Source of the DNA: a virus
Lineage: Duplodnaviria; Heunggongvirae; Uroviricota; Caudoviricetes
Reading direction: 5' to 3' (one strand)
IMG/VR virus record: IMGVR_UViG_3300015157_000014
Span: 1 to 14,250 of that record
Length of the DNA stretch: 14,250 nt
Numbering within the stretch: the first letter of the stretch is position 1; every line of letters starts with the position of its first letter. Positions 1-5,416 of the stretch are shown here, piece by piece. The translations under genes and the position numbers were made by a program. Under the pieces are notes generated by a model that worked only from the letters and a program-made list of their open reading frames with translations, searched no databases and was not told the origin of the DNA.

Positions 1-32
1 GATACGATCACATTGGCTGTAATGTCTGTCAT
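1..32 (-). CDS. Tailspike protein, N-terminal 10 codons only (5' partial gene; P22 gene 9 homolog)
   Basis: Reverse complement of 3..32 translates MTDITANVIV, matching the P22 tailspike N-terminus as I recall it (MTDITANVVV...). A GGAG-like sequence lies about 9 nt upstream. It sits downstream of ant, as in P22. The call rests on very few residues. Confidence 0.65.
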   Translation of the reverse strand, partial: MTDITANVIV

Positions 33-90
33 TTAATTTGCTCCAGATACAATGAATCGCCGCAGCGTGGCCACGGTGAATTTTGGGCAT

Positions 91-113
91 AAAAAAACCC
101 AGCCGAAGCTGGG
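91..113 (-). terminator. Rho-independent terminator downstream of ant
   Basis: On the minus strand, 6-bp GC-rich stem (cccagc/gctggg, 98..113) with a UUCG loop, immediately followed by a 7-U run (91..97). Lies 19 nt after the ant stop. Confidence 0.6.
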
Positions 114-132
114 TCGTTGCGTTGGTTATCTG

Positions 133-1023
133 TCAGTAGTTATGTACTGAAGGAGGTAATTCTTTATTCTTAAGTCTCATCCATGCGGAAAGATTCTTTG
201 GTCCGTCTGGCTCATTGATATCAACATCTCGTGTGTGATTGATTAAAACGTCTCTCGCCATTCCGATAACATACGAGAATTCATGACCGTAGTCGTAGCA
301 TCTGCCTGAATAGTTCGATTGAATTTGTTTTAGCGCCGGATACAGTTCGCGGAATAATGCCTGTGAACGGTTGGCATAATCCCATAACCATACAAGGCTG
401 TTTGCTTCTTTTGCAGAAAGCTCGTTGGTTTTCTTCTCTTGTTTGCCGATGAATTCACCTTCAAGCACTACCCTGTGGATGTACTCTACGGCCAGCGGGA
501 TTTGTTCAATTGAAAGTTCATCAATGCTGTCAATACCAAAACGCTGATGAACCATATTGTATGCATCGTCATAGCGAAGTCCTTTCTTTCCTACCAGCAT
601 GTTTACTGCATCTCGTAGCGGTGTGCGTTCAGCTACTGAAGTTTTACCTCCAATAGCCTTCCTCTCTTGTGTGGCAGTAACCATTGCGTCATATGCACGG
701 ATAACCTTCAGCGCAAAGGCTGCGCTAATCCACATGGCGTAGGAGTAAACAAGCTCCTTGCACACGTAGGTTCCACCATATCGACCTTTCTTAGAAAGGA
801 CGGGATTCTTATTCTGCATATCCGCAGAATTAAAAATTTCATTAATCAATTCAATAGTTTCATTTCTACGCATGAAGAAAGCTGGCTGATGTTTTTCCTC
901 CTTTCCAGACGCTACATGAAGGTCATTAAGCGAGTAACGCCCCTCTGAATCCATATGAATCTTGACGTCAGAAATGATGATGCTATTAGTGCAATTTACA
1001 GTTGACTTTGCTAAGCTTGACAT
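133..1023 (-). CDS. ant: Antirepressor Ant-like protein (296 aa)
   Basis: Long ORF downstream of arc in the same orientation, close in size to P22 Ant (about 300 aa by recollection). GAGG Shine-Dalgarno about 9 nt upstream of the ATG. The N-terminal region looks like a phage antirepressor DNA-binding domain, but I did not verify the domain. Confidence 0.7.
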
Positions 1024-1055
1024 ATCAATAATACCTCGTAAGTTTTGTTGATACC

Positions 1056-1096
1056 GAAGCCCTGACTGTTACAGCAGTTGGGGCTTCAACGTTTTT
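1056..1096 (+). terminator. Plus-strand hairpin plus T-run; candidate terminator of a sar-like antisense RNA
   Basis: Extended stem 1056..1087 (gaagccc.../...gggcttc with inner actg/cagt pairing), then aacg and TTTTT (1092..1096) on the plus strand. The minus strand has no U-run after it, so it is orientation-specific. The T-run is 4 nt away from the stem, which weakens the call. Confidence 0.3.
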
Positions 1097-1355
1097 CCAC
1101 TTCATTTTGAATTTGCTTAAGTAGCATATTTGTCTCGTCAAGCCTCTTGTTAATACGGTCAAGGCTTTCTACTAAATCGTTATGTGCATGTGATACTTCG
1201 TAATTTGAGACTGATTTTTTTTCCTCTATCGTCTTTGTCAATCGTTCCCCTGATTGATACATATTGATTAACGATGTAAAAATCACGAGCAAGCAAACTA
1301 CAATGATTGCGCCAGACAAAAATTGTAAAGAACGATCAAGCAATGACACCTTCAT
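1086..1355 (-). CDS. Hypothetical small membrane protein (89 aa): one N-terminal transmembrane helix plus C-terminal coiled coil, inserted between arc and ant
   Basis: ATG overlaps the arc TGA stop (ATGA overlap at 1352..1355). GAGAGGGG Shine-Dalgarno-like sequence upstream within the arc 3' end. Hydrophobic stretch AIIVVCLLVIFTSLI followed by a heptad-like charged segment. Visibly AT-rich. Confidence 0.55.
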   Translation of the reverse strand: MKVSLLDRSLQFLSGAIIVVCLLVIFTSLINMYQSGERLTKTIEEKKSVSNYEVSHAHNDLVESLDRINKRLDETNMLLKQIQNEVEKR

Positions 1356-1510
1356 ACCGTAATCCCCTCTCTCTTCAGGCTGTCCATCACTCGCTTGTAA
1401 ATCTCAGAGTTAACAGATCGCCCGTTCTCTTCCGCCACCTTACGCACCAAATCCAATACTTCTTTAGGCCACCGCAAATTGAACTGCGGCATTTTGCTCA
1501 TTCCTTTCAT
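1352..1510 (-). CDS. arc: Arc repressor (ribbon-helix-helix), 52 aa
   Basis: Translation MKGMSKMPQFNLRWPKEVLDLVRKVAEENGRSVNSEIYKRVMDSLKREGITV is near-identical to P22 Arc as I recall it (MKGMSKMPQFNLRWPREVLDLVRKVAEENGRSVNSEIY...). GAGGTGA Shine-Dalgarno 4-5 nt upstream. The start is at the internal Met of the 73-aa track ORF. Confidence 0.9.
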   Translation of the reverse strand: MKGMSKMPQFNLRWPKEVLDLVRKVAEENGRSVNSEIYKRVMDSLKREGITV

Positions 1511-1524
1511 ATTCACCTCACAAT

Positions 1525-1545
1525 ATAGGTCCACCGTGGACCTAT
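1525..1545. promoter_or_regulatory. Mnt operator (O_mnt), perfect 21-bp palindrome
   Basis: ataggtccaccgtggacctat is a perfect inverted repeat about a central base. Its core aggtccac-c-gtggacct matches the P22 mnt operator as I recall it. It overlaps the predicted Pant transcription start. Confidence 0.85.
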
Positions 1546-1573
1546 TGAGAATATAGTAGAGTGCTTCTATCAT
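1545..1573 (+). promoter_or_regulatory. Pmnt promoter (drives mnt and probably the downstream cassette)
   Basis: Plus strand reads TTGAGA (1545..1550), a 17-nt spacer, then TATCAT (1568..1573). It overlaps Pant divergently and is covered by O_arc. GGGGTGA Shine-Dalgarno precedes the mnt ATG. Confidence 0.6.
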
Positions 1574-1578
1574 GTCAA
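1550..1578 (-). promoter_or_regulatory. Pant promoter (drives arc-orf89-ant)
   Basis: Minus strand reads TTGACA (1573..1578), a 17-nt spacer, then TATATT (1550..1555). Predicted start near 1542 falls inside O_mnt. Confidence 0.7.
1553..1573. promoter_or_regulatory. Arc operator (O_arc)
   Basis: atagtagagtgcttctatcat is the reverse complement of ATGATAGAAGCACTCTACTAT, the P22 arc operator as I recall it, with TAGA/TCTA half-sites. It sits between the -35 and -10 of Pant and over the Pmnt -10. Confidence 0.8.
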
Positions 1579-1600
1579 TACACTAACTTGGGGTGATGGC

Positions 1601-1849
1601 ATGGCTAGAGACGATCCGCACTTTAACTTCCGTATGCCTTTGGAAGTAAGAGAAAAATTGAAATTAAGAGCAGAGGCTAACGGAAGGTCAATGAACTCTG
1701 AGTTATTACAAATCGTTCAGGATGCTCTCTCAAAGCCATCACCGATTGCAGGCTATCGAGACGAAGCTGAACGCTTGGCTGATCAGCAAGCAGAAATTGT
1801 TAAGAAGATGGTGTTTGAAACCCTGAAAAAAATGTACGAGACCAGATAG
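1601..1849 (+). CDS. mnt: Mnt repressor (ribbon-helix-helix; maintenance of lysogeny, represses Pant), 82 aa
   Basis: Translation MARDDPHFNFRMPLEVREKLKLRAEANGRSMNSELLQIVQDALSKPSP... is near-identical to P22 Mnt as I recall it. Divergent from arc across the operator region. Confidence 0.9.
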   Translation: MARDDPHFNFRMPLEVREKLKLRAEANGRSMNSELLQIVQDALSKPSPIAGYRDEAERLADQQAEIVKKMVFETLKKMYETR

Positions 1850-1891
1850 GTCAATGTTTGTTCGTTGATATAAAATAACAAGGTATACATT

Positions 1892-2491
1892 GTGATTGAG
1901 ATAGGCGTTATGGCCATCCTGAATCAAGAGCCAGGAAAAATTGAAAACGTTTTTTCTGACATATCAACATCTATCGAGCGTTCAATTTCAGACTTTGATC
2001 GCAGTCATAGCGGCTCTTTGTCTAAAAAACAGGCTTCTGAAGCTCTTAGCAAGATCTACTGCGTTATGTCACCTGTAGAGGAAGTTTGCAAAAAGTACAT
2101 TACATTCATTGACATATTAAGTAATGGTACGGAAGAAGATATTTCCTCACTTGATATTCAACATGACGATGTAGATATGTTGAACGATCAAATATCTAAG
2201 CTTGATTATGGTATCGCGAAACTGTTGTATACCTTCTTCATCGCTGAGAACAGCGATGCGTGGAAGCCCCATATGTCAACTCTTACAACAATGAAAAACC
2301 ACTCAATAAATACTTTTATAGAATACAAAAGGCTAACTATGGGGCTTGTGACGCTAGCAATGCAGCACATACCACTATCATATGCTGAACCTGAAGAGTT
2401 CACTGAAGAAGAGTTGGCTTCATTCAAGAAATCAGTTGAAGATTCACATAAAAGATTTGGCATGGAAGCACCAAAATGGAAAACCGCATAA
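1892..2491 (+). CDS. Hypothetical protein (199 aa; 193 aa if the ATG at 1910 is used), acidic, no transmembrane segment; first gene of the accessory cassette
   Basis: Long ORF in visibly AT-rich DNA, directly downstream of mnt with no terminator seen in between. Its 3' end overlaps the next ORF by 16 nt. Start is ambiguous (GTG at 1892 or ATG at 1910). No recognisable motif. Confidence 0.55.
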   Translation: MIEIGVMAILNQEPGKIENVFSDISTSIERSISDFDRSHSGSLSKKQASEALSKIYCVMSPVEEVCKKYITFIDILSNGTEEDISSLDIQHDDVDMLNDQISKLDYGIAKLLYTFFIAENSDAWKPHMSTLTTMKNHSINTFIEYKRLTMGLVTLAMQHIPLSYAEPEEFTEEELASFKKSVEDSHKRFGMEAPKWKTA

Positions 2492-2895
2492 GCATTGTTG
2501 TAGATGCAGCGGCTGGACCATTAGAACAATACTTTGCGAAGGCTCTTGCAAACTACAAAAACAGAGGCACCGTTTCAGCTTATCTTGGTAAGATTGGTGG
2601 GTTTGAGAGAAACCATCACGCCGTCTTATCGGGAATTTACAAGTCGCACATCAGGATCCCTGGAGTAGATGATCCTTGGTTAAAAACAACGCCAATACAT
2701 CGTAGAGTTAGCGATAACTTTTTGATATTTGCGGTACACAACACATATCCAATTCATATCCAGATCATTGCTATCATTAAACCTGATGGTCATGAGAAGG
2801 TAAAAAAACTATTGCCAGCCATCATTGATATAACTGAAAAAAGATTCCAATCTCTAAATGAGAGGGAGCTTAACTCGTTGATTTCATACAAATAA
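2476..2895 (+). CDS. Hypothetical basic protein (139 aa) with a possible RelE/YafQ-like toxin-fold signature
   Basis: ATG preceded by GGAAG about 7 nt upstream; overlaps the 199-aa ORF by 16 nt. The segment GIYKSH...DDPW...HRR...FLIFAVH...IQIIAIIKPDGHE loosely resembles the YafQ/RelE C-terminal pattern (YKDH...PDWILIY...LLRFERTGTH). This rests on weak motif similarity only. Confidence 0.55.
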   Translation: MENRISIVVDAAAGPLEQYFAKALANYKNRGTVSAYLGKIGGFERNHHAVLSGIYKSHIRIPGVDDPWLKTTPIHRRVSDNFLIFAVHNTYPIHIQIIAIIKPDGHEKVKKLLPAIIDITEKRFQSLNERELNSLISYK

Positions 2896-2917
2896 AATAT
2901 CAACTAAGGGGGTTAGT

Positions 2918-3247
2918 GTGCTTGAATGGTTTCTGTTGGCTGCATTAGTCGTTTCTGGTTTGGTGTATGAGTATCGAATGCACTCTCTAACAAAAAAAAT
3001 AGGAATTCTAGAAAACGAATATTGTGCTCTCAAATCCTCACTGGAACGTGATCAAGGAGACTTAAAAATCTCTCTGTCTAGCATTGAGCGTTCTATAGAG
3101 AGCCTAGAGGATAAGGTTGATCGTATAAAGAATGAGGATATTCATGATATTAAGGACGACATATCCTTCTTAAAATCTTGGTTGAAAAATGTTGGGAAAA
3201 TTGCCACATCAACACGAGATAAGCTCAATCCATCCATGGATGACTAA
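2918..3247 (+). CDS. Hypothetical small membrane protein (109 aa): N-terminal transmembrane helix plus coiled coil
   Basis: GTG start with strong AAGGGGG Shine-Dalgarno 5 nt upstream. Hydrophobic N-terminus WFLLAALVVSGLV, then a heptad-like charged region. Its stop abuts the gp16 stop on the opposite strand (TAATTA). Confidence 0.55.
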   Translation: MLEWFLLAALVVSGLVYEYRMHSLTKKIGILENEYCALKSSLERDQGDLKISLSSIERSIESLEDKVDRIKNEDIHDIKDDISFLKSWLKNVGKIATSTRDKLNPSMDD

Positions 3248-5416
3248 TTACTCCTGTGCCATTCCGCTTAGCGATGCCACAATTCCAGCCCTTGCTAAAC
3301 GCTGGAACTCTTCGTTTCCTAGTGCCTCGCGTATTGCTTTTACGGCGGCCTTATTTGCCATAAATCTGCGTTCCGCCGCCGCTAATGCACCATCACTTGC
3401 CCCAACCTTAACTGCCTTTGTTGCCTCTTGAACAGCCTTTTCAATAGCGTAACGACCGCTTCTAGTTGCGGATAATTTCGCTATCGCTCCTTTTGCCATT
3501 GCATCAATTGCTCCACCTGCAGCGCCACCCGCTATTGCTCCAATAACGCCTCCTCCAGAGAACCCTGCGATAGTGCCAGTAGTTCTAAAAGCGCCAGACA
3601 ATGCGCTCTCTAAAACTGGATGAAGGCCATTCTCAAGAGTGCTAATGGCTGGCATAGATCGCCCTGTCTGTTCAACATATCGAAGTGGCTTTGTTGCTGC
3701 TCTTGCAAGTTCTCCGTATGAACTTGTAATCCTGCCAAGTTCTGGAGAATATCGACTAATTGCCTTCACGTTTTGTGGGGTAAGAATAGTCGCGATATGC
3801 TTAATTCCAGCCTCTTCAGACTTACCTCCGCGTACCCCTTGCGACATTGCATCTTGTAATATTGATGCAATTGCTGGCGCGCGTTCCGACTCAGGTAGGG
3901 CGCTTATTATTTTATGGAACTGACCTGTTCCACTTTTTGCTGAGCCCTGTAACGCCTTAGAGCCATTATTTACCAACTGATCAGTTGCAAGGTCTCTGCC
4001 AAACGCTGCTTCAGCCTGTTCTTGTGCTGTAAATCTTGCCTTTGACAGGTCATTAGCTTTTTGCCAGTCATCAAGAAAACCGCCATTTTGAGCCATTATG
4101 CGCATATCTTCCGTTGCTGCATCACGAAGCTCAGCCATGCGCCTTGCCGTATTTGCCTCACCAGACCTTATATACTTCTGCTCTGCGTCAGCAAGTTTAC
4201 TTCGCCATGCCTTCATGGCATCAAACGTGATTCCTTTTTTACCAGTTTTAGCATAAGCAGATGCGAATTGTTTCATCTCAGGAGTTAGCGGCATGCCAGC
4301 CAAAATATCACCCTGAATTGTAGCGTTCAGGTTTGACATTCTGGCCTTTGCGTCAGGCATCGTGGAGCGGACGCTATCCCATGCGGCCTTTTCTGAATTT
4401 TTCATTTTATCAATGCTTGCCAAAACCCTCTGTTTTATGGCTGCACTTTTTTCTGATGCAGTTCCTGCTTCAGCCCCAAACTCATCCAATGCTGAGTTAA
4501 ATTTCGACTCTATTTCACTGAATGCTTTGGTGTGTGCATCCTGTGTAATTCCGGGCTTTGACGCCAGAATCCCCTCCGCCTGAGCAAGACCACGACTACC
4601 TGATCTCATGCCAGGAGTTAATGCGTTGATATCTATTCCAGCAGTATCTGCTGCTTTTGCTATTTCGTCTGACACATTAGCTGACTGTCTGGCAATAATC
4701 TCTCTTCCTGTACCAGACTTTGCCATTTTCGAAACATCAGCAGCGGAATTTATTGCCCCGCCACCAAGAACTTGAGGTGATTTAGAGGTTAAGATCCTTC
4801 CAGCCCCAGAAAGTATCCCCTGAGCACCAATATTGATACCACCGTTAATGGCAGCATTTTGTGCAAAGTCGCCCTCCTGATTTGCAGCATCAGCAAGAGA
4901 ACCTGCAATCATGTTTCCTGCGGAACCGATATCTCCAGCGAGCTTTGCTGGCGCTCCAGCAGCTTTTGCCGCTGTGCCAATTGGCAGGAGATACCCACCA
5001 ATTGTTTCACCGGCTTGCGCATAAGGGTCTGTCGGTCGATCGACTGGACGATAGACATCATCCAAAACCTTTGGGCCACCAAGCCCCTGGCTGATTGCAT
5101 TAATCAGACTTGCGCCACCCTGCAATACGTCAAATGGTATGTTTACCAGACCACGACCAGCCTGTTCTGCAATTTGCCCTGCACTTTGACCACCTGTGAG
5201 CCAATCACCAGCTTGTTGCATCAATGATGGTTCTTCTTTCTGCTGCTGAGGTGGAGGGTATGCTGCATAAAACTGATCTCTTGCTTCAGCCCATTTGTCA
5301 CCAGCCTTAGGGGCAACAACCTCATCAAAATATTGCGCTTGAGCCTGTGCTTTCTGTTCTTCAGTTAACGCCTGATACTGTGGAGAAGCGATAACATCTT
5401 TCCATGCTTTAGCCAT
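3248..5416 (-). CDS. Ejection (internal virion) protein, gp16-like, 722 aa
   Basis: Last gene of the minus-strand late operon, at the position of P22 gene 16. Ala/Gly/Gln-rich composition typical of podovirus ejection proteins. Start overlaps the gp20 stop (TAATG). Confidence 0.8.

What the first reader, a model, noticed from the sequence alone, without database searches (positions are those of the whole stretch)
962..1096. Candidate sar-like antisense RNA opposite the ant ribosome-binding site
A long plus-strand hairpin (1056..1087) followed by aacgTTTTT is orientation-specific, since the minus-strand mRNA has no U-run after it. It lies antisense to the region just upstream of the ant start, overlapping the orf89 stop. 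A possible promoter lies inside the 5' end of ant on the plus strand (TTGACG at 962..967, 16-17 nt spacer, TATTAG/ATTAGT near 984..990). Together these could make an antisense RNA of about 100 nt covering the ant Shine-Dalgarno and start codon, analogous to P22 sar, which limits Ant synthesis. If real, it would also be antisense to the 3' end of the novel 89-aa ORF.
Basis: inference. Interest (0 to 1): 0.5.

Follow-up and report, generated by a model that had tools for sequence, protein, structure and literature searches.

The report
Known sar antisense RNA of P22-like phages

Summary
The hairpin at 1056..1087 followed by AACGTTTTT is real and specific to the + strand. It is the 3' stem-loop and terminator of a true sar RNA. 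Rfam RF00262 matches 1025..1091 (+) at 63.6 bits, against a gathering score of 43, over the full model. The setting is a standard P22-type immI region: mnt, divergent Pant/Pmnt promoters, arc, an extra 89-aa ORF, sar and ant. It lies in a CUS-3-like E. coli phage or prophage.

The position that matches the annotated P22 Psar is GTGCAA (989-994), a 17-nt spacer ending in TG (1009-1010), then TAAGCT (1012-1017), with the start at A1024. That start lies directly next to the ant start codon.

The RNA is therefore about 68-73 nt, not about 100 nt. It covers the ant Shine-Dalgarno sequence but not the AUG, and it overlaps 11 nt at the 3' end of orf89.

Seven divergent ant classes keep the Psar core motif. 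The 5' stem-loop shows compensating base changes. The 3' hairpin is nearly invariant and marks a point where flanking modules are swapped.

Expression in this phage was not tested, and its -10 element is the weakest of the set. This is a new member of a known kind, of low interest.

The parts
989..994 (+). Psar -35-like hexamer, GTGCAA
   Evidence: It sits 17 nt upstream of the -10, as does the annotated P22 Psar -35, GTGTTA. A TG at hexamer positions 2-3 is kept in 6 of 7 divergent ant classes, including this one. It matches the consensus at only 3 of 6 positions.
1009..1017 (+). Psar extended -10, TGcTAAGCT (TG 1009-1010, hexamer 1012-1017)
   Evidence: It aligns with P22 TGcTATACT. TTGCTAnnnT is invariant in 7 ant classes that are under 85% identical, and nTG is near-invariant. 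The hexamer here matches at 3 of 6 positions but keeps -12T, -11A and -7T. It is the weakest variant in the set.
1024..1096 (+). Predicted sar RNA, about 68-73 nt, with its 3' end in the U-run
   Evidence: Rfam RF00262 matches 1025..1091 at 63.6 bits against a gathering score of 43. My own covariance model matches 1024..1091 at 82.8 bits. The start at A1024 is inferred from the annotated P22 +1, which lies 6 nt after the -10 and directly next to the ant start codon.
1024..1052 (+). sar 5' stem-loop, with the anti-Shine-Dalgarno CCUC (1034-1037) in its upper part
   Evidence: Fold (-5.7 kcal/mol, z = -3.5). All six sequence types of this segment form a hairpin at the 5' end. Three pairs change on both sides, covariation score 0.167 against 0.087 in shuffles, 0 of 500 shuffles as high.
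1056..1087 (+). sar 3' stem-loop, the hairpin of the intrinsic terminator
   Evidence: 14 pairs, 7 of them G-C, loop of 4. An exact match occurs in at least 119 viral contigs and the hairpin region matches in 366 of 5426 complete E. coli genomes. 12 of 14 pairs never vary.
1092..1096 (+). U-run of the sar terminator, which also encodes the last codons of orf89 on the other strand
   Evidence: TTTTT follows AACG. A run of 3-6 T is present after the hairpin in all 18 types of downstream flank.
133..1023 (-). ant (antirepressor, KilA-N plus P22_AR_C domains), the target of sar; its Shine-Dalgarno GAGG is the complement of 1034-1037
   Evidence: Pfam PF04383 and PF10548. 98% identical over its 5' end to ant of phage Emek.
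1086..1355 (-). orf89, an extra small gene between arc and ant (membrane segment plus coiled coil, function unknown); 11 nt of its 3' end overlap sar
   Evidence: phrog_27312, full length, E = 6.5e-61. No Pfam match above the curated cut-off and no PADLOC match. Nine copies differ by 0-2 nt, all synonymous. Its start codon overlaps the arc stop in ATGA.
1352..1510 (-). arc (52 aa)
   Evidence: Pfam PF03869, 95 bits. Translation. Same extent as the RefSeq CDS in a 99.4% identical prophage.
1545..1578 (.). Divergent, overlapping Pant (- strand) and Pmnt (+ strand) promoters
   Evidence: - strand TTGACA-17-TATATT matches 11 of 12; + strand TTGAGA-17-TATCAT matches 10 of 12. The layout is the same as in the P22 annotation.
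1601..1849 (+). mnt
   Evidence: Pfam Arc domain plus Repressor_Mnt.
96..115 (-). Terminator after ant
   Evidence: Terminator-like site on the - strand. P22 has an annotated terminator in the same place.

Best explanation
Bases 1024 to about 1096 (+) encode the sar RNA of a P22-like (CUS-3-like) E. coli phage. A weak-looking promoter of the extended -10 type lies inside the first codons of ant: GTGCAA, a 17-nt spacer ending in TG, then TAAGCT. It starts transcription at about A1024, directly next to the ant start codon and running the opposite way.

The transcript has two parts. The 5' stem-loop carries the anti-Shine-Dalgarno sequence CCUC. The 3' part is a 14-bp hairpin plus U-run that ends the RNA after about 70 nt.

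The RNA is perfectly complementary to the leader between orf89 and ant on the Pant mRNA. Pairing with it would hide the ant ribosome-binding site and so limit antirepressor synthesis, as shown experimentally for P22.

What is shown here: family membership, structure, position and conservation. What is inferred: that this promoter variant fires, the exact 5' end, and repression of Ant in this phage.
For: - Rfam RF00262 matches the full model at 63.6 bits, above the gathering score of 43. The same family is found at the same place in P22 (97.8 bits), CUS-3, Emek, EC.P3, Kapi1, SPN3UB and others.
- GenBank BK000583 annotates the P22 sar promoter, RNA and terminator. The alignment puts the window's elements at the same spacings.
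- The immI context is complete.
- The terminator is real and specific to the + strand.
- The 5' stem-loop is kept through compensating changes in six sequence types.
- The Psar core TTGCTAnnnT is invariant in 7 ant classes whose proteins otherwise differ, and the upstream nTG is near-invariant. Ant codons 4-5 are always NTA-GCA, that is ATA, TTA or GTA followed by GCA. I take this as selection on the DNA rather than on the protein, because by my knowledge of E. coli codon usage these are uncommon codons.
- P22 sar is detected in small-RNA sequencing of infected cells (PMC13397905).
Against: - There are no expression data for this phage.
- The -10 hexamer TAAGCT and the -35 GTGCAA each match the consensus at only 3 of 6 positions, and the promoter scan does not report them. 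This is the weakest -10 among the classes compared.
- The near-total invariance of the 3' hairpin gives no covariation support. Part of that invariance comes from how I fetched the loci, with an exact-match pattern.
- The conserved hairpin could persist as a recombination junction even if the RNA were not made.
Confidence: 0.85

Rival explanations
1. One reading: a longer antisense RNA of about 100 nt starts from a promoter at 962-990 (TTGACG, 16 nt, TATTAG), covers the ant start codon and first codons as well, and ends at the same terminator.
For: The hexamers are present as written. TTGACG matches the -35 consensus at 5 of 6 positions. Any + strand transcript entering from upstream would stop at the same terminator.
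Against: - TATTAG lacks the T at -7, and ATTAGT lacks the TA at -12/-11, so the site fails the scan.
- Sites of this quality occur at the chance rate (8 found against 5.8 +/- 2.8 expected).
- The motif is absent from the other six ant classes, which all keep the downstream Psar motif.
- The Rfam model and my own model both begin at 1024/1025.
Confidence: 0.05
2. In this phage the hairpin is kept mainly as a conserved junction ('boundary sequence') where modules recombine, and sar itself is silent because Psar has decayed to TAAGCT.
For: - Six classes of upstream flank and 18 classes of downstream flank occur in 36 combinations around an invariant hairpin.
- The CUS-3 record labels this stretch 'boundary sequence'.
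- This class has the weakest -10.
Against: - The whole sar unit is intact in all 10 loci of this class: the TG of the extended -10, the T/A/T key positions, the 5' stem-loop, the anti-Shine-Dalgarno sequence and a 5-U tail.
- The G.U pairs and the U-run are features of an RNA on the + strand, not of a DNA recombination site.
- The two roles are compatible.
Confidence: 0.08
3. The conserved structure acts mainly in the sense (minus-strand) Pant mRNA, as a processing, stability or translation-coupling element between orf89 and ant.
For: The mRNA leader can form the mirror-image stem-loops (-19.3 kcal/mol, z = -2.6). Covariation in the 5' stem-loop supports pairing on either strand.
Against: Three G.U pairs in stem 2 and one in stem 1 become A.C mismatches on the minus strand, where the fold is 9 kcal/mol weaker. 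The U-run and the conserved promoter make sense only for a + strand RNA.
Confidence: 0.04

Closest known systems
sar RNA of Salmonella phage P22 (Rfam RF00262; Liao et al. 1987, Wu et al. 1987, Schaefer & McClure 1997, as cited in PMC2629481)
   Same: - Same family by covariance model.
- Same position, antisense to the leader just upstream of ant.
- Same spacing of promoter, start site and ant start codon.
- Same build of two stem-loops.
- The 3' hairpin differs at one loop base over 32 nt.
- Same immI gene context.
   Different: - The 5' stem-loop sequence is different (AUCAAUAA.../...UUGUUGAU against GUUGGU.../...ACUGAC), matched to a different ant leader.
- ant here is a KilA-N type protein.
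- The -10 is TAAGCT, not TATACT.
- The U-run is longer (5 against 3).
- The gene ending at the terminator is an extra 89-aa ORF, not arc. It overlaps the RNA by 11 nt, against 2 nt in P22.
Unannotated sar copies in phage vB_SemP_Emek, phage EC.P3 and a prophage of E. coli APEC E19035
   Same: - Emek has the same ant 5' end, Psar and 5' stem-loop (96-98% identical).
- EC.P3 has the same orf89 next to the terminator.
- The APEC prophage is 100% identical over 989-1096.
   Different: None of these records annotates sar. Emek carries a different extra ORF (orf73) in the slot.
Other phage cis-antisense RNAs that oppose a regulator gene (for example lambda/P22 oop)
   Same: A short antisense RNA that ends at an intrinsic terminator and tunes the choice between lysis and lysogeny.
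   Different: Different locus, target and family. By my knowledge of the literature, oop acts at the 3' end of the cII/c1 message rather than on a ribosome-binding site.

Membership tests
sar RNA (Rfam RF00262) | Scores at or above the curated gathering score of the covariance model over the full model | tested here: met
   63.6 bits against 43, model positions 1-68 of 68, E = 1.9e-11.
sar RNA (Rfam RF00262) | Encoded antisense to the leader directly upstream of ant, with its 5' end next to the ant start codon | tested here: met
   ant ATG is at 1021-1023 (-); the model hit starts at 1024/1025 (+). In P22 the start codon is at 1469-1471 and sar +1 at 1472.
sar RNA (Rfam RF00262) | Two stem-loops: a 5' hairpin carrying the anti-Shine-Dalgarno sequence and a 3' hairpin that is an intrinsic terminator | tested here: met
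   Folds; terminator scan; covariation in helix 1.
sar RNA (Rfam RF00262) | Psar promoter inside the first codons of ant at the P22 spacing | tested here: inconclusive
   The matching position keeps nTG, a 17-nt spacer, TGcTAnnCT and 6 nt to the start. Each hexamer matches at only 3 of 6 positions and the scan does not report the site. Activity was not tested.
sar RNA (Rfam RF00262) | Lies in an immI module (mnt, Pant/Pmnt, arc, ant) | tested here: met
   One difference: an extra ORF lies between arc and ant.
sar RNA (Rfam RF00262) | A transcript of about 68-69 nt is made and represses ant translation | not testable with these tools
   Needs northern blotting, RNA-seq and reporter assays. It is known only for P22 (references in PMC2629481 and PMC13397905).
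Intrinsic (rho-independent) terminator | G+C-rich hairpin followed directly by a U-run, on one strand only | tested here: met
   14-bp stem, 7 G-C pairs, then AACGUUUUU on the + strand; no site on the - strand.

The most novel reading that the evidence does not exclude
The near-invariant sar terminator hairpin may have a second role. It could be the fixed right-hand border of a cargo slot in the Pant operon.

In about half of 114 related loci an unrelated small gene sits between arc and the hairpin. I counted at least 8 kinds, among them orf89 and a ClpX-type zinc-finger protein. In the loci where the upstream arc was checked, the gene's start overlaps the arc stop codon (ATGA). Its TGA stop lies in the foot of the hairpin, and its last codons (AAA-NNN) encode the sar U-run.

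sar would then pair with the 3' end of the cargo message as well. It could tie cargo expression or mRNA decay to control of Ant.
Probability: 0.2. Interest if true: 0.4.

Novelty: new member of a known kind. Interest (0 to 1): 0.15.

Why it matters
It matters little beyond annotation. sar is a textbook antisense regulator, and this copy behaves as expected by every sequence test.

Three practical points follow.
1. sar is missing from the GenBank and RefSeq records of the closest relatives, although the Rfam model finds it easily.
2. Because Psar is embedded in ant, it fixes ant codons 3-5 in otherwise unrelated antirepressors.
3. The terminator hairpin is a junction between swapped modules and borders a slot for small genes of unknown function. 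That slot could be a useful place to look for prophage accessory or defence genes.

Tried and rejected
- I tried to read the primary P22 sar papers; Schaefer & McClure 1997 (PMC1369469) is not held. Searches for Psar, 'boundary sequence' and 'ant moron' gave only secondary mentions. The mechanism therefore rests on the GenBank annotation of P22 and on established knowledge.
- A plain MAFFT alignment put the 5' stem of P22-type sequences one position out of register. I rebuilt the alignment with a covariance model before counting pairs. That alignment leans towards the structure.
- I considered other + strand promoter candidates specific to this allele: TTGACT 1002-1007 and TTGACA 1017-1022. 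Neither has an acceptable -10 at 16-18 nt and neither is conserved in other classes, so I rejected them.
- I looked for a known function for orf89. There is no Pfam match above the cut-off and no PADLOC match; it matches only a PHROG of unknown function.
- I ran no further search on orf89, because it is peripheral to the finding.

Full report
**What is in the sequence**

Bases 1..2400 of the window hold a P22-type immunity I (immI) region. On the minus strand it reads as follows.
- ant lies at 133..1023. It has KilA-N and P22_AR_C domains.
- An 89-aa ORF lies at 1086..1355.
- arc lies at 1352..1510. It has the Pfam Arc domain (translation).
- Strong divergent promoter matches follow at 1545..1578: Pant matches 11 of 12 positions on the minus strand and Pmnt 10 of 12 on the plus strand.
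- mnt lies at 1601..1849 on the plus strand.

The whole window is a CUS-3-like Lederbergvirus segment of E. coli. It is 94% identical to CUS-3 over 87% of its length. Bases 10..3300 are 99.4% identical to a prophage of APEC strain E19035.

**Checking the observation**

The hairpin at 1056..1087 has 14 pairs, 7 of them G-C, and a loop of 4.

The plus-strand RNA 1025..1096 folds at -28 kcal/mol, with z = -5.65, and none of 200 shuffles folds as well. The complementary RNA reaches only -19.3 kcal/mol and has no U-run after the stem. Three stem pairs are G.U, which become A.C mismatches on the other strand. The structure is therefore real and specific to the plus strand.

The site fails the consensus scan, and promoter-like sites in this region occur at the chance rate (8 found against 5.8 +/- 2.8 expected).

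**What it is**

An Rfam scan of the whole window gives a single hit. It is RF00262, sar RNA, at 1025..1091 (+), with 63.6 bits against a gathering score of 43, E = 1.9e-11, over the full model.

The same family is found at the matching place in P22 (97.8 bits), 611R6, phiv205-1, Kapi1, PhiR12_1, EC.P3, Emek, SPN3UB, CUS-3, the APEC prophage and an O157:H7 lambdoid prophage.

The curated P22 record BK000583 annotates the following (locus L001 coordinates).
- The sar promoter is GTGTTA, 17 nt, TATACT, preceded by TGc.
- The sar RNA starts at the G directly next to the ant start codon.
- The terminator is annotated.
- The arc stop codon overlaps the 3' end of sar by 2 nt.

Alignment transfers these elements to the window at the same spacings.
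- The -35 is GTGCAA at 989-994.
- The extended -10 TG is at 1009-1010.
- The -10 is TAAGCT at 1012-1017.
- The start is A1024.

My own covariance model places the hit at 1024..1091.

The RNA is therefore about 68-73 nt. It covers the ant Shine-Dalgarno sequence (GAGG, the complement of 1034-1037) but not the AUG. It overlaps 11 nt of orf89, namely the stop codon plus the last codons.

**Conservation**

An exact-pattern scan for the hairpin found at least 119 viral contigs. The hairpin region matches in 366 of 5426 complete E. coli genomes.

- **Promoter.** Upstream of the hairpin, the ant 5' ends fall into 7 classes that are under 85% identical, with unrelated N-terminal protein sequences. All keep TTGCTAnnnT followed by 6 nt and CAT on the plus strand, and 6 of 7 keep a TG at the -35 position. 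On the coding strand, ant codons 4-5 are always NTA-GCA (ATA, TTA or GTA, then GCA). These are uncommon codons by my knowledge of E. coli usage. This points to selection on the embedded promoter rather than on the protein.
- **5' stem-loop.** It exists in six sequence types, and all fold as a hairpin at the 5' end with the pyrimidine anti-Shine-Dalgarno stretch in the upper part. On a model-based alignment of 23 distinct sequences, 3 of its 8 pairs change on both sides (23 cells). The covariation score is 0.167 against 0.087 in shuffles, reached by 0 of 500 shuffles. Sliding the partners drops pairing from 92% to 35-46%.
- **3' hairpin.** It is essentially invariant: 12 of 14 pairs never vary. 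SPN3UB shows two one-sided swaps between G.U and A-U. This invariance partly reflects how most loci were fetched. The loci fetched by BLAST agree with it.
- **U-run.** A run of 3-6 T follows the hairpin in all 18 types of downstream flank.

**How it most likely works**

For P22, established work shows that sar pairs with the ant ribosome-binding site and limits antirepressor synthesis (the 1987 and 1997 papers cited in PMC2629481; sar is also detected in P22 small-RNA sequencing, PMC13397905).

Here the RNA is perfectly complementary to the orf89-ant leader, so I infer the same mechanism. Family membership, anatomy and conservation are shown. Promoter activity of the TAAGCT variant, the exact 5' end and repression in this phage are inferred.

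**Differences from P22**

- The 5' stem-loop and its target leader have a different sequence.
- ant is a KilA-N type.
- The -10 is weaker.
- The U-run is longer.
- An extra gene, orf89, lies between arc and sar.

orf89 is phrog_27312, of unknown function. RefSeq lists it as a hypothetical protein. It has no Pfam match above the cut-off and no PADLOC match. Nine copies differ by at most 2 nt, all synonymous.

**Wider pattern**

In 114 related loci, 61 have an Arc-family gene ending at the hairpin. The other 53 have an extra small ORF there, of at least 8 unrelated kinds.
- Where the upstream arc was identified by script, by record annotation or by ORF listing, the ORF's start overlaps the arc stop by 4 nt. 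The script missed divergent arc alleles in many of the 53 loci.
- The TGA stop lies at the foot of the hairpin.
- The last codons encode the U-run.
- One such ORF is a ClpX-type zinc finger.

Six classes of left flank and 18 classes of right flank occur in 36 combinations, so the hairpin is a junction between swapped modules. This agrees with the 'boundary sequence' label in the CUS-3 record. It also agrees with the high flux of the 'ant moron' described in PMC2629481.

**Verdict**

It is an ordinary, unannotated member of the known sar family. The proposed promoter, the length and the coverage of the start codon need correcting. Interest is low.

Noticed in passing
window 1892..2895 (+): Just downstream of mnt lies a 199-aa ORF (1892..2491, phrog_18235, unknown function). 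It overlaps a YafO-family toxin-like ORF (2476..2895, Pfam PF13957, 45 bits). This may be a toxin-antitoxin or defence pair inside the ant moron.
   Followed up: partly
window 2918..3247 (+): A 109-aa ORF with an N-terminal hydrophobic segment and a coiled-coil-like remainder (phrog_5962). The matching gene in CUS-3 is annotated hkcB. It has the same general build as orf89.
   Followed up: no
window 1086..1355 (-) and loci L002, L012, L024, L038, L039, L045, L006: There is a slot for small cargo genes between arc and the sar terminator. About 46% of 114 related loci carry an unrelated small ORF there. Where checked, its start overlaps the arc stop (ATGA). Its TGA lies in the foot of the hairpin. 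Its last codons encode the sar U-run, so the proteins end in K-S, K-Q, K-R or E-S. The cargo in L045 is a true ClpX C4 zinc finger (43 bits).
   Followed up: partly
L129 (CUS-3) 1258..1726: The stretch annotated only as 'bsq2 boundary sequence' holds a sar hit (84.6 bits), a 67-aa CxxC ORF and an unannotated Arc-like ORF that overlaps it by 4 nt. The statement in PMC2629481 that CUS-3 seems to lack arc probably reflects missing annotation.
   Followed up: partly
L130 (E. coli O157:H7 EC4115 prophage) 1982..2048; L123 (phage PhiR12_1): The same mnt-arc-sar-ant module, with an above-threshold sar hit (66.7 bits in L130, 69.4 bits in L123), also sits among the tail genes of lambda-like siphovirus prophages. 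It is therefore not restricted to P22-like podoviruses.
   Followed up: partly
window 1009..1020 (+), which is ant codons 2-5 (-): Because Psar is embedded in ant, codons 4-5 of seven otherwise unrelated ant classes are always NTA-GCA (ATA, TTA or GTA, then GCA). This gives a conserved x-[ILV]-A motif at residues 3-5, S-[ILV]-A in six of the seven classes.
   Followed up: yes
L128 (RefSeq prophage, 99.4% identical), L002 (Emek), L003 (EC.P3): None of the closest public records annotates sar, although the Rfam model scores it well above threshold in each.
   Followed up: yes
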